Source of the DNA: Kiritimatiellia bacterium
Lineage (GTDB): Bacteria > Verrucomicrobiota > Kiritimatiellia > RFP12 > UBA1067
DNA: 64,000 nt
Reading direction: 5' to 3'
Assembly (NCBI GenBank): GCA_017628025.1
Contig: JAGBZX010000018.1
Location: 4,786 to 68,785 of the forward strand
The translations under genes and the position numbers were made by a program. This document shows, piece by piece, positions 4,507 to 46,143 of the stretch (position 1 is the first letter of the stretch; each line of letters opens with the position of its first letter). The notes below the pieces were generated by a model. That model saw only the letters and a list, made by a program, of their open reading frames with translations, made no database searches and was not told the DNA's origin.

Positions 4507-7500
4507 TTATCTGATCATTACTTGGAAACCTTCCGGCCAGACAATTTTTCCACCGTCGCCAGTTACGATTGTATTCGCCGCGATACGCTCCTCGTAATTC
4601 CCGCCTGTCCAACCTTTACCACCTTTATGGTCACGCGAAAGAAGTTTTATTTTACTCGAATTCAAATAAACCTTTGCGTTTGATGCCTTTAAAACCATAT
4701 CCTTCAACACAAGGGTAGATCCAATCTTCCATGTATCATTCTTGACCGTTATAGAATTACCACCAGAAATAATTACACGAACCTTTCTGTATTCCGAAAG
4801 ATTATCATTGGACATAGGAATATAAACCGTTCCTGAAGTATTATACGCTTGGTCGATAAATAGCTCCCCAACGCCTGAACCATCCTCTCGGTAGTATGTT
4901 CCGCCTGTATATCCACCTGCACTAATGGATACCCCATAATCACTCCATCCAATGCGCTCAGTTTGGTAAATCGCAATTCTTCCAGCAGAAGAATGCTGCG
5001 CCCAACCATCACCAGCCGTCGATCGAACTGAAATTGAACCAGCACCTTTTACACTAGCTCCAGAAACCCATACACTTCCGCCAGTACCAGGAGCATAACT
5101 AACAACCGACGAGCCAGCTTTTATTTCGCAATCCAACACGACATGCCCATCTGCAATTAGCCTAAATGCGCCGCCGCCGTGTGCACCAGCCGCATAACCA
5201 TGAGATCCCAAAGAAAATGGATGCAATATTGATCCGTATGGTTTATTACCTGCTTGAGACCCCAATCCTGCAAAAGCAGAGCCGCCCGTACCGCCTGCAG
5301 TCCTCCCTGGACCAATCGCGCCACTACCAAAGCCTTTATTCTCAATATTTACCGAAGAACCAGCCTCTAAAGTCGCATCACCTGCAACTTCAAAGTTGAG
5401 CTTATACACCTCCTTATTACCAGAAGTAGTCGCACCGTGCGTCAATGTTACCCCTCTTTCAAGAAGAAAATCTCCATCGATTTCGTTAGGGCTCGCCCAA
5501 TAACCGAAAGAGCACGTCGCTCCAGAGAGCATATAAAGCCCTCCTGCGATATCATGCTTATAATTCGACGTGAAATTAACCGTTCCACCGTCGCCGCCAA
5601 TGACGATTTCTCCTGTTGCTAAGTTACTAGACGTATTGACGGTCCAAGTTACGCCTGATGCAGGACATATACAAATCTGTGTTTCTGCTTGCGGAACTAT
5701 CCCGTTCGCCCAACAAGACTCAGTCGAAAACCCTGTCCCGCCGCCAATCCATTCTGCGGCAGCCGCAGGAGAAAAGTCGCAATTAAGGCTATTCCCGTTG
5801 CCATCGGTAGAAAGCGCCCCGAGTTTGATATCCGCGCCCAAAGACGCGTCGCAATTCGATAGAACTACGCCTCTCAGATGCTGCGGACCTGTAACTTTCA
5901 AATTCCATGGACCAGTCGAGCCAACTGAAAGCACATGGTCATACGCGCCGCTCTCTCCGACAAGACCGAAAAGCGAAAGATGATATACCTCTACAGTCTG
6001 TCCCGCGGCAAACGCGAGCGATAGGGGATTGGTCACGCGAGAAAGGAAGTGCCGCGCCTTAAAGCCGTTTTCAAACTCAATCGACCCGCCAGATTTAGCC
6101 ACAGTTATCCGCGAATACGAATTATTCCCCAAATCCACTTTCTGATAGCCGTCACCTTCAAACTTCAGAACATCATCCACCCCGAATGTCATCGTACCCA
6201 AAGACGAAAAGGCGTTTGTGACGATAAGATCTCCTCCTGAAAGCGTAATTGCCGCGCCCGCTTCATTCGTGAGCGAGTTCACGACTGTGTTGTTCGCTAT
6301 CAATGGATAACGATCGCGACCGCTAGGAATTAAAATACAATTCTCTTCATTCGGAACCATCATAGGATTCCAATTGCCAGCGTCAGTCCACGATGTACTT
6401 ATGTTACCAGTCCACTCAACAAGATCGCCAGGCTTTGAAGATGCCATAATTGACCAACCGATATTGTTGCCCAAGTCAACTCCGTCTTCATCAAGCGGCA
6501 TCATACCGGACGAAGCGTCAGAATCTTTTACATCACAATAAGAGATTGATACCGTCGCATCTGGCTCAATGGAAAGTTGCCACTGCGAATCGTCCGTCTT
6601 TGAGAGAAGATTAATTGCATTGCCCTCTTCACCCGCGAGTGATAAACTTCCTTTAGAAAGAATGGTTGTTTTGTTTCCTGATCCTTCCCCGAAGCGGATC
6701 GTCTTTCCGGGGGTTGTACAAGACAACGAAAAGAATTTGTTCGCGCCTTCAATTACAGCATCTTCGGGCCCCTCGAAAGTAACCTTCGACCCCTCCTCGC
6801 AACTAAACTTCCCCTTCAGAGTGCAAAGGCGCTTCGTTATCCTAAGATTTGCACCACTTGGAAGTTTTAAATGTGCACCATTAGTAACGATAACTGTCCC
6901 GAACACCTCGTTGCGGTCAATAACAAGTGAATCCATAGAAGTAGCACAATAATAGCTAGTTGGAGTAATATTACCGCTATCAATTAAAAGCGTACCCTCC
7001 CCATACACGTCACCGGCATGTTCAAGATATATCGTTCCACATCCAGCTTTCGTCGTGGCGCAACCATACGCCTTTACGGAGCCTTTGAATGCGTCGAACG
7101 AGTCTGCCACGGATTGGCGTATTGAAATACGACCGCCACCAGCGCCCGAAGAGCTCGTAACGCGTCCAGCCGATGCATCTATTGTTCCTTTACCAGAGAT
7201 AGAGCCGACTTTTAAGTATATACTCCCGCCAGTGCCGTTGTAGTAGTTCAAGCCCGCCTTACTAAGGACAGAAATCGTCCCATCAACTACTAGTTCACCA
7301 GCCACCTCAAGATACACTGCTCCGCCAGCCTTATATGACTCATTATTCCCACTATTTCCAGCGCCTCCCAAATCCTTCGGTTCACGTATAGACCCCCAAC
7401 AGCGCCTACTGGTAAGTTGATTACTATGACCTCCTACACCACCATAAGCAGGTTGATTAACGAGGTTACCTGTACCTATAGAACCGAAAGTTGCTCCATC

Positions 7501-9243
7501 AAAAGGCCCCTTCAAATCACCATTGACGCTGGCTCCAGAAGCTATATTCATCGTAGAGCACTTAAGACAAAGTTTGTACTGATTAGACTTGTTATTGTTA
7601 ATGCGGTGCGTCAATGTAGCGCCGCGAGCAACAGTTACCTTGCCAGCGACCTTGTTTAACTCAACTCCGTTACAGAAATTAACCGTTGGGTAAGCTTTTC
7701 CTTCGCCGCCGCCCACAATAAATTCGCCAATGTCCAAAGGTGAATTCACCGTAACGGTATAAGCCGAAGCCTTATTAGGCAGTATTACAATGGAATTTGC
7801 GCCAGGAACAACACCAAGACTCCAATTGGCGGCATCTTCGAAATTACCCGAGCCGCCCGTCCATATATTAAGTTCATCCGATGCAATGCTTGAGCAGGTA
7901 ATGGAGCACTGCGATTCAACAACAGGAATATCAAAAGATATTGAGGAATTATCCATTTCATTCATTACCGCGCCTGCTGGCAAGTTACCCCAAGTGAAGT
8001 ATGCATGATCTCCCTCTGATACATTGCGCGCGTATACCGTCACATTAGACGTTGCAAAGACATTAGGAAGTTGAATTGAAGAACCCCAATTCTCGCCATC
8101 AAAAGAAAATTCCGTATTTTCATCGCTAGATGACACAGCAAGATTAAACCTCGCCGCTTTACAAGTAATTTCAAGATCTTCTGGCGGGTTTTTAAATTGA
8201 ACTTGAGAATTGTTCTTATCAAGGAATTCAGCATCTGAGGGAAGCCCAGACCAGATAAAATGCGCTCCTTCAAAAACTGAATTTTGAGCTTTGATGGTAA
8301 CGGTAGAGGCATTTTCTACATCGTCTGCAACAATACTCGAGTGCCATGTTTCGCCATCGAAAGAAAGTTCCGTCTCGCTGTCAGCCGCCGAACAAGCAAC
8401 CGTTGTCTTAACACCAATTCCGAGAAAACGCTCTCTGTCAATTGCAAGGTTTGTGGCAATTTCCTCTGCGGTCAACTCCCTATTATAAAACCTTATGGCA
8501 TAAAGTCGCATTTTAGCACTAGTATTATTTGCCGCGCAACCAAGCCACACCGTATTCTTTGTGGGATCTGTCGATCCACCTTTGTTAGTGAGAATTACAT
8601 CTCCATCATCAATACTAAGGCTGGCACCTGTAGTAGAATTGATTCTTATGTTAAGTAAAATATCCTTATTTATGTATGATGATGTACTAATGCTAGGACA
8701 TGCCGACGCTTTGCCTGGGAAACTGGTACCATTTCTATACTGAAGGCCTCCTATTGCCCCATTCTTACAAATTGTATTATCTTCTCTTTGGTCGAGAATA
8801 AGTTGGCGGTAATTATTGCCGCCACCGACGGAAAGATAACCGCTAAACTTTAAATATGCTTCTGGCCGCACAAAAATCTGCACTGTCATCGCCTTATCTT
8901 TTAAAGCAGTTAAGATCGGGGCACTTGCTATCGAATAATACGCTTTAGCTCCTGCACCAGCAAAAGAAAGATATGTATCTTTTATAGATATGGTACCCGA
9001 CTTCGATGCTCCTGATCCAGAAACGATATCTTTCCATGTAGTGGCGGAAGCATTATGGATATCTCCTTGTTCGGCACTCCAGCCTGCATTCGCAATTGCA
9101 TCAAACTGAGCGATAAGTCCGTCTTGCACATAGTTCTTAACCGTCTTATCACCGTATGCAAGCACATTATTAGCCGTAAAGATAAGTATAATCCCTATAG
9201 CAAACCTACTCACAGAACAAAAGGATTTTATGATATTATTCAT
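4507..9243 (-). CDS. Giant secreted surface protein (1578 aa): signal peptide, LamG/concanavalin-like domain, two Ig-like repeats, and duplicated beta-helix-type modules
   Basis: The signal peptide ends ..NNVLA/YGD. The LamG-like region spans aa 35-275 (YVQDGLIAQFDAIANAG..RLYAIRFYNRELTAEEI). Two ~85-aa tandem repeats cover aa 277-450. Modules begin W-x-G-G-x-G-x-F...NW..G-x-VP at aa 460, 944 and 1165. The C-terminus is ..EGFQVMIR. An SD (AAAGGAAGAG) precedes the ATG. Confidence 0.9.
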   Translation of the reverse strand: MNNIIKSFCSVSRFAIGIILIFTANNVLAYGDKTVKNYVQDGLIAQFDAIANAGWSAEQGDIHNASATTWKDIVSGSGASKSGTISIKDTYLSFAGAGAKAYYSIASAPILTALKDKAMTVQIFVRPEAYLKFSGYLSVGGGNNYRQLILDQREDNTICKNGAIGGLQYRNGTSFPGKASACPSISTSSYINKDILLNIRINSTTGASLSIDDGDVILTNKGGSTDPTKNTVWLGCAANNTSAKMRLYAIRFYNRELTAEEIATNLAIDRERFLGIGVKTTVACSAADSETELSFDGETWHSSIVADDVENASTVTIKAQNSVFEGAHFIWSGLPSDAEFLDKNNSQVQFKNPPEDLEITCKAARFNLAVSSSDENTEFSFDGENWGSSIQLPNVFATSNVTVYARNVSEGDHAYFTWGNLPAGAVMNEMDNSSISFDIPVVESQCSITCSSIASDELNIWTGGSGNFEDAANWSLGVVPGANSIVILPNKASAYTVTVNSPLDIGEFIVGGGEGKAYPTVNFCNGVELNKVAGKVTVARGATLTHRINNNKSNQYKLCLKCSTMNIASGASVNGDLKGPFDGATFGSIGTGNLVNQPAYGGVGGHSNQLTSRRCWGSIREPKDLGGAGNSGNNESYKAGGAVYLEVAGELVVDGTISVLSKAGLNYYNGTGGSIYLKVGSISGKGTIDASAGRVTSSSGAGGGRISIRQSVADSFDAFKGSVKAYGCATTKAGCGTIYLEHAGDVYGEGTLLIDSGNITPTSYYCATSMDSLVIDRNEVFGTVIVTNGAHLKLPSGANLRITKRLCTLKGKFSCEEGSKVTFEGPEDAVIEGANKFFSLSCTTPGKTIRFGEGSGNKTTILSKGSLSLAGEEGNAINLLSKTDDSQWQLSIEPDATVSISYCDVKDSDASSGMMPLDEDGVDLGNNIGWSIMASSKPGDLVEWTGNISTSWTDAGNWNPMMVPNEENCILIPSGRDRYPLIANNTVVNSLTNEAGAAITLSGGDLIVTNAFSSLGTMTFGVDDVLKFEGDGYQKVDLGNNSYSRITVAKSGGSIEFENGFKARHFLSRVTNPLSLAFAAGQTVEVYHLSLFGLVGESGAYDHVLSVGSTGPWNLKVTGPQHLRGVVLSNCDASLGADIKLGALSTDGNGNSLNCDFSPAAAAEWIGGGTGFSTESCWANGIVPQAETQICICPASGVTWTVNTSSNLATGEIVIGGDGGTVNFTSNYKHDIAGGLYMLSGATCSFGYWASPNEIDGDFLLERGVTLTHGATTSGNKEVYKLNFEVAGDATLEAGSSVNIENKGFGSGAIGPGRTAGGTGGSAFAGLGSQAGNKPYGSILHPFSLGSHGYAAGAHGGGAFRLIADGHVVLDCEIKAGSSVVSYAPGTGGSVWVSGASVKGAGSISVRSTAGDGWAQHSSAGRIAIYQTERIGWSDYGVSISAGGYTGGTYYREDGSGVGELFIDQAYNTSGTVYIPMSNDNLSEYRKVRVIISGGNSITVKNDTWKIGSTLVLKDMVLKASNAKVYLNSSKIKLLSRDHKGGKGWTGGNYEERIAANTIVTGDGGKIVWPEGFQVMIR

Positions 9244-9276: not shown

Positions 9277-9306
9277 ATTATAGCATTTACCCCCCCCCCC
9301 TGTCAA
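9277..9306 (-). promoter_or_regulatory. Sigma70-type promoter with a G11 homopolymer in the spacer (candidate phase-variable promoter of the giant protein gene)
   Basis: The minus strand reads TTGACA (9301-9306), G x11 (9290-9300), TAAATGC, then TATAAT (9277-9282). The spacer is 18 nt and TGC-TATAAT forms an extended -10. The promoter lies 34 nt upstream of the ATG. Confidence 0.7.
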
Positions 9307-22237: not shown

Positions 22238-22842
22238 TTCAACTCCTCAATAGTTATCTTAGTCCTTAAACCAGAGCCTACTATTTCAACTTCCATCACG
22301 CTCGGCGCCCAACGCTCGCCAAATTTCTTTAGCCTCGTCCCCCAAAGCCTTCTGACGCGCTTATCGTCTCCAGAAAGAGTTTCTTCTGCTTGCAACAATG
22401 CAGATGTTTTCTTATCAAGCCACACACGCATTACTCTATCGGCATTTCTCAAAATAATTACTCTACACTTCTGTCCATGCACCGACTCGCCAACTAACTT
22501 TGGATCATACAAGACATCGTCCCAATTAAGATAATCTAACGATAAATCGCTCCATGTCACGGCAGACCCTTCGAGAAGTGGCTTAAACGGATCCTTAGTT
22601 GAGCGTTCTATTAACGCGCCATCTATCTTAAGTTCCAATAACTCTGACTTAGCGCGCTTGTAAGTATATGTATGCTCTGATTTTACGATGCCACGGCGAT
22701 TACGAACAATTATCCTACCATTTAACTCAACCTCTGCTGGTAGCATTTGGCGACAGCGCTCTAGAAGCTCTTTAGCAGGAATATCAGCTACTGGGGTAGT
22801 TAATTGGGCTACTGCAAGAAATAAAGATGCCAAGAAACTCAT
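22234..22842 (-). CDS. LolA-like (outer-membrane lipoprotein-sorting-like) fold protein
   Basis: It has a signal-like N-terminus. The pattern WSDLSLDYLNWDDVLYDPKLVGESVHGQKCRVIILR...ERWAPSVMEVE resembles the LolA_like family. The assignment rests on motif memory only. Confidence 0.45.
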   Translation of the reverse strand: MSFLASLFLAVAQLTTPVADIPAKELLERCRQMLPAEVELNGRIIVRNRRGIVKSEHTYTYKRAKSELLELKIDGALIERSTKDPFKPLLEGSAVTWSDLSLDYLNWDDVLYDPKLVGESVHGQKCRVIILRNADRVMRVWLDKKTSALLQAEETLSGDDKRVRRLWGTRLKKFGERWAPSVMEVEIVGSGLRTKITIEELK

Positions 22843-23651
22843 TCGAACTCCTTTTCAAGAATCTTGTGCTGTGGTCCGCCATAATTACGACCTGTTTCGT
22901 AATATCTGCGCGCAGCATCACGCGACTCAGGGCGAAATTTTAAAATAAGAGCCGCCATATTATAGTACGCGTGATACGAGCGAGGATTTGTCATTATCGC
23001 CCTATAAAGAGTCTCCTCGGCAGCTTTAAAATCGCCCGCCTTAGCCTCCATCATAGCTCTCATATTAAGAGCTTTTGCATCATCTGGACGCAAATTAAGA
23101 CGCTCTTCAATTTCTGCCTTTGAAAATGTTGGCACCGATGTTGGTCTAGGAGATTGATCCTTCTCTACCTTTGCTACTTTTTCCTCCGTCTTAACAGTCT
23201 CTTTTTTTACCGCTGGCAACGGAGCTTTACCACCTTTACGCGCCAAACGCCTAGCCTCAAACTTTTTCTCCAATTCAGTAGTATTCGTTACTTGAACTGC
23301 TTTTGCATTATCTTTGCTCTGCTCGAGTAAAATCGAGTCAATCGCTGCATTTACATAAGCTCGCTTATTTCTCAAAGACGAATACTCTGGCAATGGCGCG
23401 ATCGCAGGATTTTCGCGTTCAACCCTGTCTAATTCTTGAAGTGCCTTGCGATAATGCTCCAGGGCCTTATCCAAATCACCTTGGGCGGCGGCCTCTACAG
23501 CATCGTCAATCTCAATCGAAGCTTGCTCAACAAGTTCAGAGAGTTTTGGCTTTTCTGGCTTGTCATCATCAGAGCCAAACGGCCAATACCACGCTGCATT
23601 AAGAGCGTTACATAATAGAATAACTATAATAAGAGAAGTTGTTTTTTTCAT
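22839..23651 (-). CDS. Secreted TPR-like repeat protein
   Basis: It has a signal peptide (LIIVILLCNALNA). Helical-repeat segments with TPR-like spacing occur at both ends (GDLDKALEHYRKAL.., GDFKAAEETLYRAIMTNPRSYHAYYNMA). The middle is a lysine/glutamate-rich linker. Confidence 0.55.
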   Translation of the reverse strand: MKKTTSLIIVILLCNALNAAWYWPFGSDDDKPEKPKLSELVEQASIEIDDAVEAAAQGDLDKALEHYRKALQELDRVERENPAIAPLPEYSSLRNKRAYVNAAIDSILLEQSKDNAKAVQVTNTTELEKKFEARRLARKGGKAPLPAVKKETVKTEEKVAKVEKDQSPRPTSVPTFSKAEIEERLNLRPDDAKALNMRAMMEAKAGDFKAAEETLYRAIMTNPRSYHAYYNMAALILKFRPESRDAARRYYETGRNYGGPQHKILEKEFE

Positions 23652-23699: not shown

Positions 23700-25859
23700 T
23701 TATCTGACTATAACCGAAAGACCGTAAACTTTATCTAAGCAAAACTTTATATTATCCAATGCGGAATGAGCAAAATTTCCTGGATTCTTGCCATCTGTTG
23801 AATCATTATCACTAATTGAACTTATTAGCAATACGAATCGCAACTTGTAAACACCAGGCTTTTTGACTCTGCAATATGACTCATATTGCTTATCCCAGAC
23901 TCGATTCTTGTCATATTGATGCACCATTTGGCCAAGAGAAATTTCTTTACCATCTTCATCAACAAGAAGAACATTAATCACCCACTTTGAATTAACAACT
24001 CGAGTATTATGGTATCCGGCAGAACCGATACAAGAAAACTTATATTCTCCTTTATCTGTTACTCTAACATCTGTCTCTATAACAGCATCTGTTCTCCCAT
24101 TAATATAATTATTTCCAGCCATAATAGCAGAAAGACCTTTTGCGTTATAAGTCTTTATCCCTGTATTAGTACACCCTTCCTTTTGGGCGGCCAAAATTCC
24201 TGTAAAACATATTGTTTTTGTCCCTTCTTTAACAATCGTCCAAGATCCAGCTGTCAATCGGTCAAAATTCCGAATTATATCTTTGCTGTGCGAAGAATTG
24301 TTATTTATTTCGAAATCACCATTTAAAATTAAATTATCCTTTTTATGAGCTGAAAAATACGCGTTAATCGTCATTGGTGCAGCAACGGCGGTAATTAATT
24401 TACTTTGCTCTATCAAACGCTGAGTTCCGTCTCCCCAACCGCCCCAGCCGACAAAGTTATCCATAGATGCAATTGCTACATTAATAGTATCTCCTTCTCT
24501 ATACCAGCCGGATTTATCTTCAACAAGGCTGCCTCTTTCGCATGAAGTTACTGTTGAAACATAATATTCTTTTATGAATTTCCATTTAAGAACAACGCCT
24601 TTATTTTCGCCTATCGCATACTGAACGGTGTCTGCAGTGCTTTGGTTATCTCTGTAATCATCTGCATATTCATCTATCAACACTGTTTCATCTTTATTCC
24701 AAAGTTCACAGCCTACACACACAGCTCGAACGCCTTCACTAACATCAGAAAACCTAGGAAAAGTATACTCGCCGCTACTTGGAAGTATTGGATATAACCC
24801 ATAAGTAATATCAGGCGAACCAAACTTTTCTGTAGTACTATCTATTACAATTCCTTGGAAATCATCATCGTTAAGCGCATATCTCAACACAACGATGCCA
24901 CTACCGCCGGAGCCGCCTCTGTTTGCCCCGCGTCCGCCGCCGCCACCGCCACCTGTAGAAGCTTCACCAGAATAAGCAGCTGAGTTGTATGTATCATTAT
25001 AACCACCGCCCTTGCCACCTCCTCCTTTTCCTCCATTTCCGCGATATGCGTTATAATAATTATAAGAACCGCCGCCACCGCCGCCAGCATACCAAGTTTC
25101 CACACCAACAATATACGAGGATCGTCCGTTACCACCATGACCTATACCGCTAGAACTTCCAACAGAAGTCCCGCCGCCGCCTGCGCCGCCGCCGCCTGCG
25201 CCAGGTGAATTACCTGATGTAGAAAAAGTTCTATTTCCACCATTGTTTCCTTGATCAGGTATTCCTGCTCCTCCTTGAGACGCATCATATGCCAGGCTAC
25301 CACTCGTACCAGCTCCACCTCCGCCGCTACCTCCATCAGAACCATTTGCGGCTTCTTTAGAAATTGCAGATCCACCAGCTCCGCCGCCGTAAGCAATTAT
25401 AGCATCTTGTCCGACCGCTGTAATTGAGGAATCTGCTCCATTTTTTGCCAGAGTTGAGCCTCCACCGGTAGCACCTGAACCACCTGCACCAACAACTATA
25501 TTTAAATCGGTATTTGCAGAAATACCGGTAAGAATACCTGTAAGCATGCCACCAGCGCCGCCACCGCCACCACCACCAGATGAAGCGCCGCCGCCGCCAC
25601 CACCGCCGGCAACGACTAGATAATTAATTATGCCTTCTTTAATGCCGGCGGGAACTTGCCAAGTGTGAGGATTTGTCTCATCGGCAACAGCTGTAAACGC
25701 TACAACATACTCAAGCGTTCCGTTTGGCAATAACAACGCCTGTGTGTAGCCGTTATCAGTAGTAACTTTCTGAGCAAAATATTTTGCCGCTATAGGTTCT
25801 TCAGCAACTACGGTAGAAGCGATAATAACCGCTGGAAGGAAAGAACGCAGATATTTCAT
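23700..25859 (-). CDS. Glycine-rich secreted surface protein, paralog B (719 aa)
   Basis: The signal peptide is MKYLRSFLPAVIIASTVVA/EEP with an AAAGGAG SD 8 nt upstream. The track start at 25886 is a GTG extension. Architecture: conserved N-terminal beta segment (..HTWQVPAG..YLVVAGGGGGGG), ~260-aa Gly-run domain ending GSGIVVLRY, an InlB-B-repeat-like segment (WYREGDTINV..FVGWGG..INAYF), a divergent jelly-roll-like C-terminal domain starting DNLILNGDFE, and the tail GLSVIVR. Confidence 0.85.
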   Translation of the reverse strand: MKYLRSFLPAVIIASTVVAEEPIAAKYFAQKVTTDNGYTQALLLPNGTLEYVVAFTAVADETNPHTWQVPAGIKEGIINYLVVAGGGGGGGASSGGGGGGGAGGMLTGILTGISANTDLNIVVGAGGSGATGGGSTLAKNGADSSITAVGQDAIIAYGGGAGGSAISKEAANGSDGGSGGGGAGTSGSLAYDASQGGAGIPDQGNNGGNRTFSTSGNSPGAGGGGAGGGGTSVGSSSGIGHGGNGRSSYIVGVETWYAGGGGGGSYNYYNAYRGNGGKGGGGKGGGYNDTYNSAAYSGEASTGGGGGGGRGANRGGSGGSGIVVLRYALNDDDFQGIVIDSTTEKFGSPDITYGLYPILPSSGEYTFPRFSDVSEGVRAVCVGCELWNKDETVLIDEYADDYRDNQSTADTVQYAIGENKGVVLKWKFIKEYYVSTVTSCERGSLVEDKSGWYREGDTINVAIASMDNFVGWGGWGDGTQRLIEQSKLITAVAAPMTINAYFSAHKKDNLILNGDFEINNNSSHSKDIIRNFDRLTAGSWTIVKEGTKTICFTGILAAQKEGCTNTGIKTYNAKGLSAIMAGNNYINGRTDAVIETDVRVTDKGEYKFSCIGSAGYHNTRVVNSKWVINVLLVDEDGKEISLGQMVHQYDKNRVWDKQYESYCRVKKPGVYKLRFVLLISSISDNDSTDGKNPGNFAHSALDNIKFCLDKVYGLSVIVR

Positions 25860-25889: not shown

Positions 25890-25918
25890 ATTTTATCATT
25901 TACCCCCCCCCCTGTCAA
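25890..25918 (-). promoter_or_regulatory. Sigma70-type promoter with a G10 homopolymer spacer (paralog B)
   Basis: The minus strand reads TTGACA (25913-25918), G x10 (25903-25912), TAAATGA, then TAAAAT (25890-25895). The spacer is 17 nt and TGA-TAAAAT forms an extended -10. Confidence 0.7.
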
Positions 25919-25944: not shown

Positions 25945-25968
25945 AAAAGTAGGTCTGACCTACTTTTT
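25945..25968. terminator. Bidirectional hairpin flanked by an A-run and a T-run (second terminator after paralog C)
   Basis: AAAAGTAGGTCTGACCTACTTTTT is palindromic around the centre. It is conserved at 28806-28832. Confidence 0.5.
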
Positions 25969-26009
25969 GATTTTTGAAAACTCATTTTAGAAAAAACTCA
26001 TAACGAAAC

Positions 26010-26042
26010 AAAACTCCCGCCCAAAATCAGGACGAGAGTTTT
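26010..26042 (-). terminator. Rho-independent terminator of paralog C
   Basis: The minus-strand RNA is CUCUCGUCC-UGAUUUU-GGGCGGGAG, a 9-bp stem including 2 G-U pairs. It is followed by UUUUGUUUCGUU and starts 25 nt after the stop codon. Confidence 0.7.
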
Positions 26043-26066
26043 ATTTAGCTTAGTCTCTTACCTTAC

Positions 26067-28637
26067 TTATCTGACCATGAGCGCGAAGCCACAACGCTTG
26101 TCAAGGCAAAGCGAGATGTTATCAAGCCCCATTGAAAGAGTATTATAAGTACCAATTCGAGACTCTTTTGGTATGGTAAATTTCAATTTATAAGCGCCTC
26201 CCTTTGGGATATTAAACTGCTGCACTTGTGATTTCCAGTTACTTTGACCAATATCTTTAACATCAAACTCTCCAATAGAAATTATCCTATCAGAATTATT
26301 TTTATCAACAAGCTCTACTTTTACTTTCCACTCATTATTTGCTATATTACTAGTATTCGCGCCTCTTACTAACATACAAGAGAATGTATAAAGCCCCCCA
26401 CAATGAGGATTTACATCACATGAAACACACCCTTCATCTCCATCATATAAGGTAGTCAGCTGCAGAGAAAGCCCTGTAAGTCCATACGATCTAATATTGG
26501 TACCATATGATAAATTATTGTGTGAAGAGATTATTCCACACACAAAATAACTACTTCCTGCATTCTGCTCTATATTCCAAGATCCGGCATTTAATAGTCT
26601 GAGGCTTCCTATAACATCCAGCTGACTAATATATTCTACATGTTGTTCAAAATCACCATTTAAAACAAGATTATCTTTAATATTTTGAGTAAAATATGCC
26701 GTTGCAACAATAGGTTTATTTTTAACTACTACTTCAGCCTGCGCCTCGCTTGGGCATCCGCCAGAAAAGAACCCACCCCAACCTTTAAAGCCTACGGTAG
26801 AAGCAACTTCAAGAGTTATCTCATCTCCAGTCTTATACCAACCAGACTTATTCTCTTTTAATGCACCATTACCTTCAACAACAGTCGAAACATAATACTC
26901 TTCACGCCATTTCCATGTTAAAAGAACCGGTTCTTCAAATTGAACAGAGGCTGAGACATTCCCGTTTTGTGCCTCGCTTACCGGGAAAACTTCAGATGTA
27001 ACACCTGTTGAAAATGAAGTAAGCGTATAACCTACACAATGTTGACGGATTGTTTCTGTTACCTCTGTAAATTCCGGAGCATAAAGTGTATAAGTGCTTC
27101 CAACGCTTGAATACGAAGCAAAATGATCTTCCAAAGAACCATTTATTGCAAATCCGTCATAACTAACCGTAATCCCACTAGGAATGAAAAATGCCTTGAT
27201 AGTTGTAGGTTTCGATTCAACCGTAAATGCATACTCATTTGAGGTATTCTCTAAATCCACACCATCTTTTTGCCATTTGCCCAAACTATAGTTAAATCCA
27301 GGAGTTGCTACGATAGTCATCAATGTACCTGAACTATAATAGCCAGTTGACACATTAAACGTGCCTTCTCTATCTTTTTCGATAGTAACTAAATAGCGAA
27401 GCTCCCACTGCCATTCAAGTGTAGATCCAGCACAAGAAGAATCAAGTATTGCCTTTAAATTAGTCTCACCTTCCGCAAGAGTCCCAGAAGAGCGAATAAG
27501 TTCTCCTGATGAACCATAAAGTTTCCACCCTGTGCAATACGCCCTTACACCATCTTCTACTTGTACATACTCTTGACAAGAATACTCATTTGCAGGAATT
27601 TCTTCATAAGCGCCATAAGCAGGAACAGGTGTGCCATAAGAGCCGCCAAAAGAAGAAATAATAATACCAGACGAAACATCTACTTTTGCGTAACGCAATA
27701 TAACAATACCACTACCACCAGCTCCGCCATCCTTTGATGCATGACCGCCCCCGCCTCCACCACCGAGACCATTCGTTCCGGGGTTGCCAACAGTAGCGTA
27801 GCCTATTTTCTTATCAGAGGTTCCTCCACCTCCATCGCCACCTCCACCAAGTCCTCCAGAACCAGAAGAATTATAAGTACTCGAATAACCAGCACCACCG
27901 CCGCCGCCACCATAATAAATTTCAGTACCAGTAATAGAAGATTTCCGGCCGTTCCCACCAGAGAACCCTGTAGCAGGCGCTCCTGCACCGCCACCGCCAT
28001 AACCTCTTGAATTGCCACCCATTGCGACCCTACCATATCCATTATTACCCTGTCCTTCAAATCCATTTCCTCCAGGAGCTGGATAACTCCTTGATGCACC
28101 TGCAGCCGTTCCCGCACCACCGCCGCCACTGCCGCCATCAGCACCACCAAACAAATCTTTCAAGTTCGCATCATTATAAATACCGCCGCCACCACCGCCT
28201 CCATAACTAGTCACCTTTCTTAATCCAAAAGCAATGTATGAATCCCCTCCATTTGAACCACGAATAGAACCGAGACCATGTTTCACTCCTCCTGCACCAC
28301 CGTCTCCTACTTTAATCTCAATTTCTTGATTGGGACTAACCGAGGAAGTCTCTTCTATCATACCGCCGCCACCACCACCGCCACCATGGTAGTATCCACC
28401 ACCGCCACCTCCGGCAACAACAAGATATTCCATAGAATACACACCAGACGGCACTGTAAATGAATGAGGCGTCGATGTATCAGTAAAAGCAACGACATAC
28501 TCTGTCTTCCCCTCTGCCGTTACAACTTCATTCGACCAGCCGCCTTCGATTTCAAACGGACCAGAAACAGATACATCTTGTGCATTAATAAAAGAAAATA
28601 CCGATATTCCAAGCGAAAAAACTATGCTCTTTTTCAT
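26067..28637 (-). CDS. Glycine-rich secreted surface protein, paralog C (856 aa)
   Basis: The signal peptide is MKKSIVFSLGISVFSFINA/QDV with a GGAGG SD. It has the same architecture as B and D, plus additional InlB-B-repeat-like modules (..GKWQKDGVDL..IKAFF, ..FKGWGG..ATAYF). The Gly-run domain spans aa 57-316 and ends GSGIVILRY. The C-terminal domain starts DNLVLNGDFE and the tail is GFALMVR. Confidence 0.9.
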   Translation of the reverse strand: MKKSIVFSLGISVFSFINAQDVSVSGPFEIEGGWSNEVVTAEGKTEYVVAFTDTSTPHSFTVPSGVYSMEYLVVAGGGGGGYYHGGGGGGGGMIEETSSVSPNQEIEIKVGDGGAGGVKHGLGSIRGSNGGDSYIAFGLRKVTSYGGGGGGGIYNDANLKDLFGGADGGSGGGGAGTAAGASRSYPAPGGNGFEGQGNNGYGRVAMGGNSRGYGGGGAGAPATGFSGGNGRKSSITGTEIYYGGGGGGAGYSSTYNSSGSGGLGGGGDGGGGTSDKKIGYATVGNPGTNGLGGGGGGGHASKDGGAGGSGIVILRYAKVDVSSGIIISSFGGSYGTPVPAYGAYEEIPANEYSCQEYVQVEDGVRAYCTGWKLYGSSGELIRSSGTLAEGETNLKAILDSSCAGSTLEWQWELRYLVTIEKDREGTFNVSTGYYSSGTLMTIVATPGFNYSLGKWQKDGVDLENTSNEYAFTVESKPTTIKAFFIPSGITVSYDGFAINGSLEDHFASYSSVGSTYTLYAPEFTEVTETIRQHCVGYTLTSFSTGVTSEVFPVSEAQNGNVSASVQFEEPVLLTWKWREEYYVSTVVEGNGALKENKSGWYKTGDEITLEVASTVGFKGWGGFFSGGCPSEAQAEVVVKNKPIVATAYFTQNIKDNLVLNGDFEQHVEYISQLDVIGSLRLLNAGSWNIEQNAGSSYFVCGIISSHNNLSYGTNIRSYGLTGLSLQLTTLYDGDEGCVSCDVNPHCGGLYTFSCMLVRGANTSNIANNEWKVKVELVDKNNSDRIISIGEFDVKDIGQSNWKSQVQQFNIPKGGAYKLKFTIPKESRIGTYNTLSMGLDNISLCLDKRCGFALMVR

Positions 28638-28667: not shown

Positions 28668-28696
28668 ATAATATCATTTACCCCCCCCCCTGTCAA
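28668..28696 (-). promoter_or_regulatory. Sigma70-type promoter with a G10 homopolymer spacer (paralog C)
   Basis: The minus strand reads TTGACA (28691-28696), G x10 (28681-28690), TAAATGA, then TATTAT (28668-28673). The spacer is 17 nt. Confidence 0.7.
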
Positions 28697-28805: not shown

Positions 28806-28832
28806 AAAAAAGTAGGTCTGACCTACTTTTTT
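28806..28832. terminator. Bidirectional hairpin flanked by an A-run and a T-run (second terminator after paralog D)
   Basis: AAAAAAGTAGGTCTGACCTACTTTTTT is a near-identical copy of 25945-25968. Confidence 0.5.
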
Positions 28833-28871
28833 ATTTTTGAAAACTCATTTTAGAAAAACTCCTAACGAAAC

Positions 28872-28904
28872 AAAACTCCCGCCCAAATTTAGGACGAGAG
28901 TTTT
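28872..28904 (-). terminator. Rho-independent terminator of paralog D
   Basis: It has the same 9-bp stem as 26010-42 (CUCUCGUCC/GGGCGGGAG). The only differences between the two copies fall in the loop (CUAAAUUU vs CUGAUUUU). A U-tract follows. Confidence 0.7.
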
Positions 28905-28928
28905 ATTTAGCTTAGTCTCTTACCTTAC

Positions 28929-31085
28929 TTATCTAACCATGAGCGCGAAGCCAAAACGCTTTTTAAGTTTAAGCATGAGGTTGTCTATCGCTGAATGAGC
29001 ATTAACATTATCGTTAACATCATTTTTGTATACCTTAGATCTTTCTATTTTAAATATCAATTTATAAATTCCGCCTTTTCGAATTTGAATTTCAAAAGGA
29101 TAATTTGCCTTAGAAGCATTATCTTTTTGAAGGATATTACAAACATTTACCTCTTCACCACTTCCATTTTTTTGTAAATAAACACTTATCTCCCATGTTG
29201 TTGCATTTACATCACCTGGATCTGCATCAAATGATAAATCATAAAGACCTGAACACGGTATATTGACATAACAACTTATTGATGCAGTTCCTGAGTAGTT
29301 AGTGTTTTTTCCTTTTGTCCCTATAATTCCTGAATGATTACCACTTATGACCTTTGAGCCAGAGTTTGCTACACCTGTCGATCTAGCACTTAATAATCCT
29401 GTTGGATAGGATGTATAAGAATTTTGTGTAGATTCCCATATTCCTCCTATTAAACGAGAAAATGTCGTATCTATCGTCGTAGAATCGCTAGTATTTCCAC
29501 TCATTTCAAAATCGCCATTAAGTACCAAATTATCTTTATTATGCGCTGTAAAGTAAGCGGTAATTGTCATTGGTGCAGCAACAACTTCAATTGTTTTACT
29601 TGGCTCAATTGAACGATCTGCGTTAATTCCCCAGCCGCCCCAGCCGATAAAGTTGTCCATAGAGGTAATTGCTACTTGAATAGTATCGCCTGCTCTATAC
29701 CAACCGGATTTGTCTGCAACAAGGCTGCCTCTCTCGCAAGAAGCTACAGTTGAAACATAATATTCTTTTTCAAATTTCCATTTAAGGATAACGCCTTTTT
29801 CAGAATCGTTCCTTGTGAAAGTAATCGTTTTTGATAAATCAGTTTCTTCGTATGGAGGATTTTCCGAATCAAAAGTATCAGACCTGATTAGATACTCTTC
29901 ACCTTCTTCATTCCTACCATAAAGTTCCCAACCAATACAAGTAGCCCTTGCACCTTCGCTAAGTACCGTATATTTCGGACAAGTAAATGCGCTATTACTC
30001 GGTAGTTCCTTGTAAATATCATAAGCAGGACTTGGTGTACCAAACTTCTCAGTAGTAGAATCAACTGCAATACCTTGGAAATTATCGTTATTAAGCGCAT
30101 ATCTCAACACAACAATGCCGCTATCGCCTGAGCCGCCCGATCGGTAACCTCTCGCGCCACCGCCACCACCGCCTGTAGAAGCAGTTCCCGACCCTCCATT
30201 ACCTACTGGTTCATTGCTTATATTACCGCCAGCGCCACCTCCGCCAGCGCCACCAAGACCATTATTATCAATCGAGTTACCATAGGTACCGCCGCCACCA
30301 CCACCAGCATACCGAACCTGTGCACCAGTGATATAAGAATATCTACCATCCCCACCATGCCCTCGATTATTGGTATTAGCAGTTGTAATCGTAATTCCTG
30401 CCATCCCTGCTCCGCCACCTCCTGCTCCTGGTCTATTTTGGGTAGTATCCGAGGTTCTGTTACCACCTGCAAAACCTTGTCCTTCCACGCAAGTTCCACC
30501 AGTTGTTGGTAATTTAGCTGAACTGCCACTTGTTCCAGCAGCACCGCCACCACTGCCACCAGCTGAACCATTAGCAACATCTTGAGAATATGCAGAGCCT
30601 CCAGCACCACCACCAATGGCAATTATATCAGTCGCCCCTTTAATAAAGGAATCTTCACCATTATTTGCTACTTTATTTGCACTAGAACCGCCGCCACCAC
30701 CAGCGCCAACAACAATAGTTAAATCAGTACTTTCAGAAATACTATTAAGCGTGCCTGTAAGCATACCGCCACCGCCGCCGCCACCGCCGCCACCACCAGA
30801 GGATGCATTATTACCAGTACCGCCACCGCCACCACCGGCGACGACTAGATAATCAATTTTGCTGTCTTTAACATTGGCGGGAACTTGCCAAGTGTGAGGA
30901 TTTGATTCATCATTAACAGTTGTAAATGCAACGACATATTCAAGTGTTCCATCGGGCAACAACAATGTCTGCGTGTACCCGCTATCAGTCGTTTCTTTTT
31001 GAGCAAAATATTGTGCCGCCGTAGGCTCTGCAAGAACAGAAGAAGCAACAAAAAATACCGAGACAAACGAAAGCAACAATTTCAT
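28929..31085 (-). CDS. Glycine-rich secreted surface protein, paralog D (718 aa)
   Basis: I prefer the start at 31085 (MKLLLSFVSVFFVASSVLA/EPT) with a GGAGG SD 8 nt upstream. The track ORF runs on to 31412 through non-coding-looking sequence. D is close to B in the N-terminal, Gly-run and B-repeat parts. Its C-terminal domain (from DNLVLNGDFE) is strongly divergent, and the tail is GFALMVR. Confidence 0.85.
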   Translation of the reverse strand: MKLLLSFVSVFFVASSVLAEPTAAQYFAQKETTDSGYTQTLLLPDGTLEYVVAFTTVNDESNPHTWQVPANVKDSKIDYLVVAGGGGGGTGNNASSGGGGGGGGGGGMLTGTLNSISESTDLTIVVGAGGGGGSSANKVANNGEDSFIKGATDIIAIGGGAGGSAYSQDVANGSAGGSGGGAAGTSGSSAKLPTTGGTCVEGQGFAGGNRTSDTTQNRPGAGGGGAGMAGITITTANTNNRGHGGDGRYSYITGAQVRYAGGGGGGTYGNSIDNNGLGGAGGGGAGGNISNEPVGNGGSGTASTGGGGGGARGYRSGGSGDSGIVVLRYALNNDNFQGIAVDSTTEKFGTPSPAYDIYKELPSNSAFTCPKYTVLSEGARATCIGWELYGRNEEGEEYLIRSDTFDSENPPYEETDLSKTITFTRNDSEKGVILKWKFEKEYYVSTVASCERGSLVADKSGWYRAGDTIQVAITSMDNFIGWGGWGINADRSIEPSKTIEVVAAPMTITAYFTAHNKDNLVLNGDFEMSGNTSDSTTIDTTFSRLIGGIWESTQNSYTSYPTGLLSARSTGVANSGSKVISGNHSGIIGTKGKNTNYSGTASISCYVNIPCSGLYDLSFDADPGDVNATTWEISVYLQKNGSGEEVNVCNILQKDNASKANYPFEIQIRKGGIYKLIFKIERSKVYKNDVNDNVNAHSAIDNLMLKLKKRFGFALMVR

Positions 31086-31110: not shown

Positions 31111-31141
31111 ATTTTATCATTTACCCCCCCCCTGGTGTCAA
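31111..31141 (-). promoter_or_regulatory. Sigma70-type promoter with a CCA+G9 spacer (paralog D), 19-nt spacing
   Basis: The minus strand reads TTGACA (31136-31141), CCA, G x9 (31124-31132), TAAATGA, then TAAAAT (31111-31116). The spacer is 19 nt. Confidence 0.6.
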
Positions 31142-46138: not shown

Positions 46139-46143
46139 AAAAT

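What the first reader, a model, noticed from the sequence alone, without database searches (positions are those of the whole stretch)
26067..26090. Shared extreme C-terminal motif G-[FL]-x-[LV]-[MI]-[VI]-R-COOH on all four poly-G-promoter proteins: candidate novel sorting or anchoring tag
The four protein ends are as follows. A ends ..IVWPEGFQVMIR* (nt 4507-4530). B ends ..CLDKVYGLSVIVR* (23700-23723). C ends ..CLDKRCGFALMVR* (26067-26090). D ends ..KLKKRFGFALMVR* (28929-28952). Protein A is otherwise unrelated to B-D, yet it ends in the same Gly-aromatic, 4-hydrophobic, terminal-Arg heptapeptide. The motif is too short to be a TM-helix tag such as PEP-CTERM, LPXTG, GlyGly-CTERM or MYXO-CTERM. 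It is not a T9SS C-terminal domain, and it does not end in the aromatic residue typical of OMP beta-signals. It could be a terminal beta-strand used for strand complementation with an outer-membrane partner, or a recognition site for a processing enzyme. The co-occurrence of promoter cassette and C-terminal tag is the strongest hint that these four genes form one system.
Basis: seen in the sequence. Interest (0 to 1): 0.7.

Follow-up and report, generated by a model that had tools for sequence, protein, structure and literature searches.

The report
Seven-residue C-terminal tag on giant surface proteins
Four large exported proteins in this window, and dozens of distant relatives in uncultured gut Verrucomicrobiota/Kiritimatiellota, all end in the same seven-residue tail (Gly, five mostly hydrophobic residues, then Arg or Lys), which looks like an undescribed sorting or anchoring tag resembling the signal that outer-membrane barrel proteins use to dock onto their assembly machine.

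Summary
Four minus-strand genes (A 4507-9243, B 23700-25859, C 26067-28637, D 28929-31085) end in GFQVMIR, GLSVIVR, GFALMVR and GFALMVR. No other ORF in the window does (4 observed, 0.03 expected, P about 3e-8).

The tail is conserved at the protein level in relatives down to about 25% identity. It ends about 60 of the 149 best mutually divergent representatives of the A-type family. It caps three C-terminal regions that BLAST cannot relate, and both AlphaFold models leave it unstructured. It matches no curated C-terminal sorting model.

The consensus is G-[FTLM]-x-[LIV]-x-[VLI]-[RK]-COOH. This fits the Omp85/BAM beta-signal register G-x-x-Phi-x-Phi, plus exactly one extra residue that is basic in 86% of cases.

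The carriers are Sec-exported, adhesin-like proteins with no membrane barrel. In this species each of the four genes sits behind a TTGACA-poly(G)-TAnnAT promoter, and the G-run upstream of gene C differs (9, 10, 10, 11) between assemblies.

My best reading (about 40%) is a free terminal beta-strand that docks by beta-augmentation onto an outer-membrane barrel to target or anchor phase-variable surface proteins. Function is inferred, not shown. I rate it a new variant of a known kind.

The parts
26070..26090 (-). Tail of protein C: GFALMVR (stop codon at 26067-26069)
   Evidence: AF2 model of C's last 330 aa gives residues 324-330 pLDDT below 50 and no secondary structure.
4510..4530 (-). Tail of protein A: GFQVMIR (stop at 4507-4509)
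   Evidence: In the AF2 model of the last 430 aa the tail is coil and the last 43 residues have pLDDT below 50.
23703..23723 (-). Tail of protein B: GLSVIVR (stop at 23700-23702)
28932..28952 (-). Tail of protein D: GFALMVR (stop at 28929-28931). The tail codons plus about 110 nt of 3' flank are nearly identical to those of C.
4507..9243 (-). Gene A, 1578 aa: Sec signal peptide, LamG-like N-terminal domain (PF13385 in homologs), Ig-like repeats, three beta-helix modules, a conserved C-terminal module (...H-K-x-G-x-G-W...I-x-W) and the tail
23700..25859 (-). Gene B, about 719 aa from the MKYLRSF start: signal peptide, Gly_rich_2 domain, Ig-like domain, CBM-like beta-sandwich, tail
26067..28637 (-). 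Gene C, 856 aa: signal peptide, Gly_rich_2, Flg_new_2 (InlB B-repeat-like) domains, CBM-like beta-sandwich, tail
28929..31085 (-). Gene D, 718 aa from the MKLLLSF start (50% identical to B): signal peptide, Gly_rich_2, Ig-like domain, CBM-like sandwich, tail
9277..9306 (-). Promoter cassette of A: TTGACA-G11-TAAATGC-TATAAT (18-nt spacer)
25890..25918 (-). Promoter cassette of B: TTGACA-G10-TAAATGA-TAAAAT (17-nt spacer). The run is G9 in another assembly (L006).
28668..28696 (-). Promoter cassette of C: TTGACA-G10-TAAATGA-TATTAT (17-nt spacer). The run is G9, G10, G10 and G11 in four assemblies that are otherwise identical over 130 nt.
31111..31141 (-). Promoter cassette of D: TTGACA-CCA-G9-TAAATGA-TAAAAT (19-nt spacer)

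Best explanation
The heptapeptide G-Phi-x-Phi-x-Phi-[R/K]-COOH is a modular C-terminal tag. It is a short peptide with beta-strand-type composition that hangs free after the last folded domain of Sec-exported, giant, adhesin-like proteins. These proteins are beta-helix proteins, or glycine-rich proteins with a CBM-like tip, from uncultured gut/rumen Verrucomicrobiota (probably Kiritimatiellota).

I infer that once the protein is in the periplasm, the tail pairs by beta-augmentation with an exposed edge strand of an outer-membrane beta-barrel. The candidates are BamA strand beta-1, another Omp85-family member, or a dedicated partner barrel. Seven residues is the span that the BamA lateral gate contacts and is about the thickness of the outer-membrane core (my own estimate). 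With the strand running outside-to-inside, Gly would lie at the outer face and the Arg/Lys plus free carboxylate at the periplasmic face, leaving the rest of the protein outside the cell. The tag would thus target and/or hold these proteins at the outer membrane or cell surface.

In this species the four tagged genes are additionally switched on and off independently by slipped-strand changes in a poly-G tract that sets the -35/-10 spacing.

Shown: the tag exists, is strongly conserved, is strictly terminal, sits on unrelated folds, is not modelled as part of those folds, and fits the beta-signal register. The G-run upstream of C varies in length between assemblies.

Inferred: beta-augmentation, the identity of the receptor, surface localisation and anchoring.
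For: 1. Selection. The tail is kept in homologs at 25-33% identity and with different codons in genomes of 43% and 60-63% GC. Information content peaks at -7 (G), -4, -2 and -1 and collapses at -8.
2. Breadth. 62 of the 149 best representatives (50%-identity cluster representatives) of the A-type module end this way, and 15 more fragments do.
3. Strict position. Of 270 unique proteins, 90 end G..Phi.Phi plus exactly one residue, and only 1 ends with none. The last residue is R in 66 and K in 11, against 7.4% R+K after the same pattern at internal sites. The regex is about 8000-fold enriched at the terminus over internal positions.
4. Modularity. Three C-terminal regions with no BLAST similarity carry it. 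A further context...NVNWxFPxxG-T-Phi4-R, also carries it.
5. Not part of the fold. AF2 leaves it unstructured with pLDDT below 50 after a CBM-like sandwich and after a beta-helix.
6. Export. All four window proteins, and 51 of 62 representatives by a crude test, have N-terminal signal peptides. The organism has LPS genes LpxB and LpxI, so it is a diderm.
7. Beta-signal register. The published consensus is zeta-x-G-x-x-[arom/hyd]-x-[arom/hyd], and the BamA gate contacts a seven-residue span (PMC10945584). A few equivalents end in F, Y or W like canonical signals.
8. Precedent. Non-barrel lectin-type proteins are known to dock a short C-terminal peptide on BamA beta-1 (bioRxiv 10.64898/2026.09.25.754295).
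9. Position equivalence. At least one homolog carries a known anchoring module, a type I dockerin, at the same position.
10. No dedicated neighbour gene recurs, which is compatible with a housekeeping receptor.
11. Phase-variable promoters, typical of surface antigens, precede all four genes.
Against: - The beta-signal consensus is loose. Any Gly followed by a hydrophobic beta-strand fits it, so the match is weak evidence.
- The defining terminal aromatic of bacterial beta-signals (LGLGYRF, PMC10629564) is replaced by Arg/Lys one position further on, and the dyad is aliphatic.
- The proteins contain no membrane barrel, and a non-barrel protein parked on BamA might be expected to block it.
- No receptor, partner or protease gene was found.
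- I could not obtain any bona fide OMP of this clade to compare its own C-terminus.
- The AF2 models rest on 7-sequence alignments (mean pLDDT about 64), so 'unstructured' is not strong.
- In the A-type family the tail always comes with a conserved module of about 60 aa, so some of its conservation there could be structural.
- Localisation is wholly inferred.
Confidence: 0.4

Rival explanations
1. The tail is a recognition or cleavage signal for a dedicated processing enzyme. A sortase-like or PorU-like transpeptidase, or a C-terminal protease, would remove it and attach the protein to LPS, peptidoglycan or a lipid, or would mature the protein.
For: The free C-terminus is obligatory: there is exactly one residue after the motif in 90 of 91 cases. 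The invariant small residue (Gly) at the start of the tag resembles cleavage-site residues of other sorting tags (established knowledge of LPXTG and GlyGly-CTERM). The tag is unstructured and accessible in the models. The same clade uses exosortase-type sorting, as shown by the PEP-CTERM protein in L009, so C-terminal sorting enzymes are part of its biology.
Against: All known transpeptidase-type tags need a TM helix or a folded domain of about 80 aa to present the site, and seven residues provide neither. No candidate enzyme gene recurs next to tagged genes. No curated model matches.
Confidence: 0.2
2. The tail is purely structural. It would be an edge strand or half of a terminal beta-hairpin that caps the last domain, or that zips subunits together (oligomerisation or fibre formation), with no sorting role.
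For: The composition is of a beta-strand type (beta-branched and hydrophobic residues). In the A-type family a conserved strand ...I-x-W lies 2-8 residues upstream, so a hairpin is plausible. Gly_rich_2 domains and CBM-like tips are shared with trimeric phage fibres.
Against: The same heptapeptide, with the same strict one-residue offset and basic end, follows three unrelated C-terminal regions. Two of these were modelled as different folds, a beta-helix and a beta-sandwich. A structural cap should co-vary with its fold. AF2 does not dock the tail onto either domain. Position -8 and the linker are unconserved and of variable length.
Confidence: 0.15
3. The tail is an export or quality-control signal read in the periplasm by something other than a barrel. 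Candidates are a PDZ-domain protein (a T2SS GspC-like protein or a DegS/DegP/Prc-type protease), a LolA-like or AsmA-like carrier, or an unknown translocon.
For: PDZ domains bind free C-terminal peptides by beta-addition (established knowledge), and the strict requirement for a free C-terminus fits this. A TPR protein, a LolA-like protein and an AsmA-N-like protein lie directly downstream of gene B with no terminator detected between B and the first of them.
Against: Classical PDZ ligands end in a hydrophobic residue, not Arg/Lys. The TPR/LolA-like/AsmA-like trio was not seen next to tagged genes in any other locus.
Confidence: 0.12
4. The proteins are trans-acting antibacterial weapons. Like lectin-like bacteriocins (Llps, L-type pyocins), a glycan-binding domain would dock on a competitor and the C-terminal peptide would block that cell's BamA beta-1.
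For: B-D end in a CBM-like lectin fold followed by a short free C-terminal peptide with a hydrophobic dyad. That is the architecture described for Llps.
Against: Llp peptides are hypervariable, aromatic, lack the Gly and carry two or more residues after the dyad. Here the tail is highly conserved, aliphatic, keeps the Gly and has exactly one residue after the dyad. The carriers are 700-2800 aa multi-paralog families with Sec signal peptides and phase-variable promoters, which is more typical of surface adhesins. The lectin fold is CBM-like rather than the beta-lectin domains described for Llps.
Confidence: 0.06
5. The shared ending is chance, or a DNA-level repeat such as a terminator or mobile-element end that happens to be translated.
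For: C and D share identical tail codons and about 110 nt of 3' flank. All terminal Arg codons are AGA or AGG.
Against: P about 3e-8 in the window. A and B encode the tail with different codons and different 3' flanks. GC-rich relatives use yet other codons. The tail is conserved across about 90 unique proteins.
Confidence: 0.01

Closest known systems
C-terminal beta-signal of outer-membrane beta-barrel proteins (BAM/SAM/Omp85 substrates; consensus zeta-x-G-x-x-[arom/hyd]-x-[arom/hyd], prototypical bacterial form LGLGYRF)
   Same: An extreme C-terminal peptide with beta-strand-type composition. Gly is three residues before a hydrophobic-x-hydrophobic dyad, and a polar residue or Pro is often two residues before the Gly. 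The length equals the roughly seven-residue span held by the BamA lateral gate.
   Different: The dyad is aliphatic rather than aromatic. The dyad is never the C-terminus: exactly one more residue follows, and it is Arg/Lys in 86% of cases. The carrier has no membrane barrel, being a beta-helix or a glycine-rich/CBM protein. Recognition by BAM is untested.
C-terminal beta-signal-mimic peptides of lectin-like bacteriocins (LlpA/B, L-type pyocins) that bind BamA strand beta-1
   Same: A soluble lectin-type protein followed by a short free C-terminal peptide containing a hydrophobic-x-hydrophobic dyad. This is the documented precedent that such a peptide on a non-barrel protein can pair with BamA beta-1.
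   Different: Llp peptides are hypervariable, aromatic/His-capped, lack the Gly, and act in trans from outside on competitor cells. Here the tail is conserved, aliphatic, Gly-initiated and Arg-terminated, and it sits on Sec-exported giant paralog families. The lectin fold also differs (CBM-like rather than the beta-lectin domains of Llps).
Curated C-terminal protein-sorting tags (PEP-CTERM/exosortase, LPXTG/sortase, GlyGly-CTERM/rhombosortase, MYXO-CTERM, T9SS C-terminal domains)
   Same: A short signature at the extreme C-terminus of many otherwise unrelated exported, often giant, surface proteins of one lineage. It begins with a small residue and ends with basic residue(s).
   Different: There is no transmembrane helix (only five hydrophobic residues) and no folded C-terminal domain. 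No NCBIfam model matches. The same clade separately has a classical PEP-CTERM protein.
Donor-strand complementation (chaperone-usher pili, type V pili)
   Same: A terminal strand with hydrophobic residues and a conserved Gly that could complete another protein's beta-sheet, with the free carboxylate possibly important (established knowledge).
   Different: No pilin fold, chaperone or usher genes were seen. The carriers are giant multidomain proteins, not pilins.
Phase-variable promoters with a homopolymeric tract in the -35/-10 spacer (from established knowledge, for example Bordetella fim poly-C and Neisseria porA/opc tracts)
   Same: TTGACA-Gn-...-TAnnAT with n = 9-11 gives spacers of 16-19 nt. 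The tract length upstream of C differs among assemblies of the same organism while flanks are identical.
   Different: The phylum is different and the cassette, including TAAATG(A/C), is shared by four genes. Expression switching was not measured.

Membership tests
OMP beta-signal (BAM substrate signal) | Motif zeta-x-G-x-x-[arom/hyd]-x-[arom/hyd] in the last strand | tested here: met
   G at -7 in 49 of 62, hydrophobic residue at -4 and -2 in about 100%, and P/K/S/D/R common at -9. The consensus is taken from PMC10945584. The pattern is loose, so meeting it is weak evidence.
OMP beta-signal (BAM substrate signal) | The last dyad residue is the C-terminal residue and is usually aromatic (F/Y/W; LGLGYRF) | tested here: not met
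   90 of 91 motif-bearing ends have exactly one further residue. It is R in 66, K in 11 and aromatic in only 7. The prototypical consensus is from PMC10629564.
OMP beta-signal (BAM substrate signal) | The signal is the final strand of a transmembrane beta-barrel | tested here: not met
   Pfam and AF2 show Gly_rich_2, Flg_new_2, a CBM-like sandwich and a beta-helix. No barrel domain was found.
OMP beta-signal (BAM substrate signal) | Bound by BamA beta-1 / BamD | not testable with these tools
   This needs AF-multimer with the organism's BamA, or biochemical assays.
Llp / L-type pyocin beta-signal mimics | [arom/hyd]-x-[arom/hyd]-x-[arom/His] peptide, hypervariable, Gly absent, two or more residues after the dyad | tested here: not met
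   The tail is conserved, aliphatic, Gly-initiated and has one residue after the dyad (compared).
Llp / L-type pyocin beta-signal mimics | [quoted passage not shown] | tested here: not met
   The last domain of B-D resembles CBM4/16/22-type sandwiches, and Pfam finds no lectin domain.
PEP-CTERM / LPXTG / GlyGly-CTERM / MYXO-CTERM | Signature motif followed by a TM helix and a basic cluster | tested here: not met
   Only five hydrophobic residues follow the Gly. There are no NCBIfam hits at E up to 10.
T9SS C-terminal domain (types A and B) | Folded C-terminal beta-sandwich domain of about 80-100 aa matching the curated T9SS C-terminal-domain models in NCBIfam | tested here: not met
   There are no NCBIfam hits. 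The last folded domain is CBM-like and is followed by the tail.
Promoter phase variation by homopolymeric spacer tract | A homopolymer lies between the -35 and -10 hexamers | tested here: met
   TTGACA-G9-11-TAAATG(A/C)-TAnnAT occurs at all four genes.
Promoter phase variation by homopolymeric spacer tract | Tract length is polymorphic within the population while flanks are constant | tested here: met
   Gene C has G9, G10, G10 and G11 in four assemblies that are otherwise identical over 130 nt. Gene B has G10 in the window and G9 in L006.
Promoter phase variation by homopolymeric spacer tract | Expression switches with tract length | not testable with these tools
   This needs transcriptomics or reporter assays.
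Gly_rich_2 (PF21722) proteins (B, C, D only) | Pfam match above the gathering score | tested here: met
   77-88 bits against a cutoff of 24.3.

The most novel reading that the evidence does not exclude
The tail is the address label of a previously unrecognised outer-membrane display route. In this route a single C-terminal beta-strand, a 'minimal beta-signal' with an obligatory basic stop-residue, is enough. Giant passenger-like proteins that have no barrel of their own would be handed to an Omp85-family protein (BamA, TamA or a dedicated paralog). They would stay held in its open seam as a one-strand hybrid, in effect autotransporters that have outsourced their barrel. The route would serve hundreds to thousands of giant surface proteins in uncultured gut Kiritimatiellota and related Verrucomicrobiota.
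Probability: 0.22. Interest if true: 0.85.

Novelty: new variant of a known kind. Interest (0 to 1): 0.62.

Why it matters
C-terminal sorting tags (LPXTG, PEP-CTERM, T9SS C-terminal domains) have each revealed a dedicated surface-display machine and made whole surface proteomes predictable from sequence. This tail marks a large, unannotated set of giant exported proteins in gut and rumen Verrucomicrobiota/Kiritimatiellota, a group that is still poorly studied experimentally.

If it is a sorting or anchoring signal, a one-line regex would predict the surface-exposed, phase-variable antigens and adhesins of these organisms. It would also point to their receptor.

If it docks on an Omp85 protein, a seven-residue strand would be shown to suffice for stable engagement of the lateral gate by a native non-barrel client. 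That bears on how BAM selects and releases substrates, and on the design of beta-signal-mimic inhibitors.

The poly-G promoters add a clear case of promoter-spacer phase variation in this phylum.

Tried and rejected
1. The genome-collection scan with the 7-sequence A alignment failed because it had no conserved stretch. A closer alignment found only one GTDB locus, and the metagenome scan found only two. No large genomic sample of the clade could be assembled, so a proteome-wide enrichment test was not possible.
2. I tried to reach bona fide OMP genes of the same genome by walking off both window edges. Only housekeeping and glycoside-hydrolase genes turned up, so the clade's own beta-signal remains unknown.
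3. Looking for a conserved partner gene beside tagged genes in L001, L004, L009, L015 and L016 found nothing recurrent.
4. The cluster look-up of ten tail-bearing representatives returned no names.
5. The PDB sequence search with the B-D C-terminal profile found nothing meaningful. Foldseek on the A model gave no significant hit.
6. The third homology search returned mostly contig-truncated fragments, so the tag on small proteins could not be assessed.
7. Literature searches for a described tag in Kiritimatiellota/Verrucomicrobia found nothing relevant.
8. Prophage or tail-fibre origin is rejected. PHROG hits cover only the glycine-rich domain, the proteins have signal peptides, and the neighbours are housekeeping genes.
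9. T9SS, PEP-CTERM and LPXTG membership is rejected.


Full report
**Observation.**
- Protein A (4507-9243, 1578 aa) ends GFQVMIR.
- Protein B (23700-25859) ends GLSVIVR.
- Protein C (26067-28637, 856 aa) and protein D (28929-31085) both end GFALMVR.
- B and D start at internal ATGs preceded by AGGAG-like sites. The longer mechanical ORFs run upstream through the promoter.
- All four begin with ordinary Sec/SPase I signal peptides (read directly).

**More than chance.** None of the other 288 ORFs of at least 60 aa in the window ends in the motif, or even in 'three hydrophobic residues then R'. The regex G[FLTM].[LIVF].[VLI][RK] occurs at 1e-4 per internal ORF position. That gives 0.029 terminal matches expected against four observed (P = 3e-8). 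A has no detectable similarity to B-D (best E = 0.48). B and D are 50% identical, and C is 31-38% identical to both. C and D share identical tail codons and about 110 nt of 3' flank, which indicates a recent duplication. A and B encode the tail with different codons and have unrelated flanks.

**Conservation elsewhere.**
- Homologs of A at 25-33% identity end GFAVTVR, GFSVSIR, GTIFSIR, GTIIVIR and GLRVFVR. Homologs of C at about 40% identity end PFVIFVR and GLTILMR.
- In contigs of 60-63% GC, two or three adjacent giant genes each carry the tail: L001 has GFSVRVR, GMIITVK and GFAVTVR, and L004 has GFLVTVR and GLAVTLR. Their codons differ from the window's.
- An exhaustive profile search with the last 430 aa of the A family found 9,669 representative clusters. 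Of the best 149 (cluster representatives at 50% identity), 62 end in the tail. A further search added 15.
- Across 270 unique proteins, 90 end G-x-x-Phi-x-Phi plus exactly one residue, and only one ends with no extra residue. The last residue is R (66), K (11), Q/N (5), F/W/Y (7) or P (1). After the same pattern at internal sites, R+K make up 7.4%.
- Information content is high at -7 (G), -6, -4, -2 and -1 and nearly nil at -8.
- The consensus is G-[FTLM]-x-[LIV]-x-[VLI]-[RK]-COOH.

**Modularity and structure.** With the last 12 residues removed, the C-terminal 300 aa of tail-bearing proteins fall into three groups with no BLAST similarity between them: A-type, B-D-type, and a LamG/Flg_new_2 type (L001_5160, P0016). 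A fourth context...NVNWxFPxxG-T-Phi4-R, appears among fragments.

AlphaFold2 on the last 330 aa of C gives an Ig-like domain and a jelly-roll. The jelly-roll's last strand ends at ...NISLCLDK, and the seven tail residues have pLDDT below 50 and no secondary structure. That jelly-roll resembles CBM4/16/22-type carbohydrate-binding modules.

AlphaFold2 on the last 430 aa of A gives a beta-helix (pTM 0.75) with an unstructured tail. Foldseek finds only weak, non-significant resemblance to TPS and autotransporter adhesin helices. Both alignments had only seven sequences, so 'unstructured' is suggestive rather than proven.

In the A-type family the tail always follows a conserved module (...H-K-x-G-x-G-W ... 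I-x-W, then a 2-8 residue linker).

**What the proteins are.** B-D combine a signal peptide, a Gly_rich_2 domain (PF21722), InlB-B-repeat-like domains (Flg_new_2 detected in C) and the CBM-like tip. A combines a LamG-like domain (PF13385 in homologs), Ig-like repeats and three beta-helix modules. None has a membrane-barrel domain. PHROG matches cover only the glycine-rich domain.

The neighbours are housekeeping genes: LigA, LpxB, LpxI, GlgP, SecDF, HtpG, Prs, Pth and an RND efflux system. The locus is therefore chromosomal, in a diderm with LPS, and is not a prophage.

The only named relatives are a rumen MAG labelled 'Verrucomicrobia bacterium Tb.RUG.121' (same assembly as L002) and a partial protein labelled 'Kiritimatiellota bacterium'. 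Assigning the window to Kiritimatiellota is an inference. The same locus occurs in NCBI MAG GCA_045646825.1.

**Promoters.** The window has exactly four G-runs of 8 or more (0.69 expected). Each lies in a cassette TTGACA-Gn-TAAATG(A/C)-TAnnAT upstream of A (G11, spacer 18), B (G10, 17), C (G10, 17) or D (CCA+G9, 19).

Four independent assemblies of the C promoter are identical over 130 nt except for the G-run: 9, 10, 10 and 11. B has G10 in the window and G9 in L006. This is the signature of slipped-strand phase variation of promoter spacing.

GC-rich relatives with the tail lack such runs (L001, L009). L004 has an interrupted version, TTGACAGGGTGGGGGGTGG...TATAAT. So the tag is far more widespread than the promoter cassette.

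**Comparison with known systems.** No NCBIfam model (the library that holds the curated C-terminal sorting-signal models, including PEP-CTERM and T9SS types) matches at E up to 10, either on the full proteins or on the isolated C-terminus. Pfam has nothing for the tail. Four literature searches found no description of it. The clade does have a classical PEP-CTERM protein (L009 2472-3119).

The conserved positions fit the eight-residue beta-signal consensus zeta-x-G-x-x-[arom/hyd]-x-[arom/hyd]. The BamA lateral gate contacts a seven-residue span (PMC10945584). The tail departs from the prototypical bacterial form LGLGYRF (PMC10629564) in three ways: an aliphatic dyad, an obligatory extra residue that is basic, and a carrier without a barrel.

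There is a recent precedent for a short C-terminal peptide on a non-barrel lectin-type protein pairing with BamA beta-1, namely the lectin-like bacteriocins. Those peptides are hypervariable, aromatic and Gly-less, and they act in trans.

At the equivalent position, other homologs carry a type I dockerin (P0034), a weak GC-type dockerin match (P0089), TM-like hydrophobic ends, or an unannotated ...FFR[VL]xAxN/Y end (21 of 149).

**Mechanism.** My best-supported reading (about 0.4) is that the tail is a free C-terminal strand that docks by beta-augmentation on an outer-membrane barrel. The candidates are BamA, another Omp85 member or a dedicated partner. The tail would thereby target or anchor these Sec-exported adhesin-like proteins at the cell surface. 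Independent poly-G switches would then give combinatorial phase variation of four surface proteins in this species.

The rivals are as follows:
- a cleavage or attachment signal for an unknown processing enzyme (0.2);
- a purely structural or oligomerisation strand (0.15);
- a periplasmic PDZ or carrier-recognised export signal (0.12);
- a trans-acting BAM-blocking toxin peptide (0.06);
- chance or a DNA repeat (0.01).

The match to the beta-signal is to a loose pattern and should not be over-weighted. No step of localisation or binding has been shown.

**Limits.**
- I could not assemble a proteome-scale sample of the clade.
- I could not inspect its own OMP C-termini.
- I could not model complexes.
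- I found no partner gene.

These gaps define the next steps listed separately.

**Verdict.** The finding is real and statistically robust, and it extends well beyond the window. As far as the curated libraries and the searchable literature show, it is undescribed. It is best classed as a new variant of a known kind: a C-terminal sorting-type tag with beta-signal-like chemistry. Interest 0.62.

Noticed in passing
window 28668-28696 (C promoter); L006 9947-9957; L007 70-79; L008 70-78; also window 25903-25912 compared with L006 12726-12734: The poly-G tract in the -35/-10 spacer differs in length between independent assemblies of the same organism (C: 9, 10, 10, 11; B: 10 against 9), while 130 nt of flank are identical. 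This is direct evidence of slipped-strand promoter phase variation.
   Followed up: yes
window 4510-4512, 23703-23705, 26070-26072, 28932-28934; tail genes in L001, L002, L004, L009: The terminal Arg is always encoded by AGA or AGG (10 of 10), followed by TAA or TAG. The one tail gene held as DNA that ends in Lys uses AAG then TGA. AGR is only 36-62% of internal Arg codons in the same genes (joint p about 3e-4, not corrected for relatedness). This may reflect Lys/Arg interconversion by single transitions, or a constraint on the stop-codon context.
   Followed up: partly
window 25955-26066 and 28817-28928 (minus strand, 3' of C and D): About 110 nt downstream of the C and D stop codons are nearly identical, including two hairpin/T-run elements. 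The tail, the 3' UTR and the terminators were duplicated or converted as a unit.
   Followed up: partly
window 21437-23651: Genes for a TPR protein, a LolA-like protein and an AsmA-N/DUF748-like protein follow gene B on the same strand. The gap to the first is only 48 nt and no terminator was detected. This envelope-biogenesis trio was not seen beside tagged genes in other loci.
   Followed up: partly
P0037, P0055, P0062, P0070, P0095, P0108, P0110, P0130, P0143 and others; also P0019-P0022: 21 of 149 homologous giant proteins end instead in a conserved ...G[ST]N(G/S)....(V/L)P....P..FFR[VL].A.[NY] C-terminus. The preceding roughly 100 aa match no Pfam or NCBIfam family. This may be a second undescribed C-terminal module, probably from another Verrucomicrobiota lineage.
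   Followed up: partly
L009 2472-3119: A small protein ends in a classical PEP-CTERM signal (...VPEPGSGTLVLVGMALLALRRRRRQHG) and is followed by a large TPR protein. The clade therefore also uses exosortase-type sorting.
   Followed up: no
window 1-64000: Every credible gene in the 64 kb (about 50, plus two tRNAs at 46068-46235) is on the minus strand, an unusually complete strand bias.
   Followed up: no
L006 (contig ends inside gene B); L011 (contig ends just short of gene A); L007 and L008 (2.7-kb contigs holding only gene C): Metagenome assemblies repeatedly break at these genes, presumably because of the paralogous repeats and poly-G tracts. These proteins are therefore likely under-represented or truncated in public catalogues.
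   Followed up: no
window 31843-32745: A XerC/XerD-type tyrosine recombinase gene lies immediately upstream of gene D. No inverted repeats or invertible segment were looked for.
   Followed up: no
L004 1412-1421 and 1507-1537: A 60%-GC relative has the same promoter architecture upstream of its A homolog, but with an interrupted G tract (TTGACAGGGTGGGGGGTGGATATGGTATAAT). It also has a separate uninterrupted G10 about 100 nt further upstream.
   Followed up: partly
P0064, P0114, P0122, P0156, P0191, P0258, P0262; P0063, P0072, P0074, P0186, P0194: A minority of otherwise typical tails end in F, Y or W (GSVLRFF, GTVFLFY, GSVFMIW, AGTFLLLF) or in Q (GLMITVQ, GIIFSIQ) instead of R/K. These may be lineage-specific variants of the last position.
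   Followed up: partly
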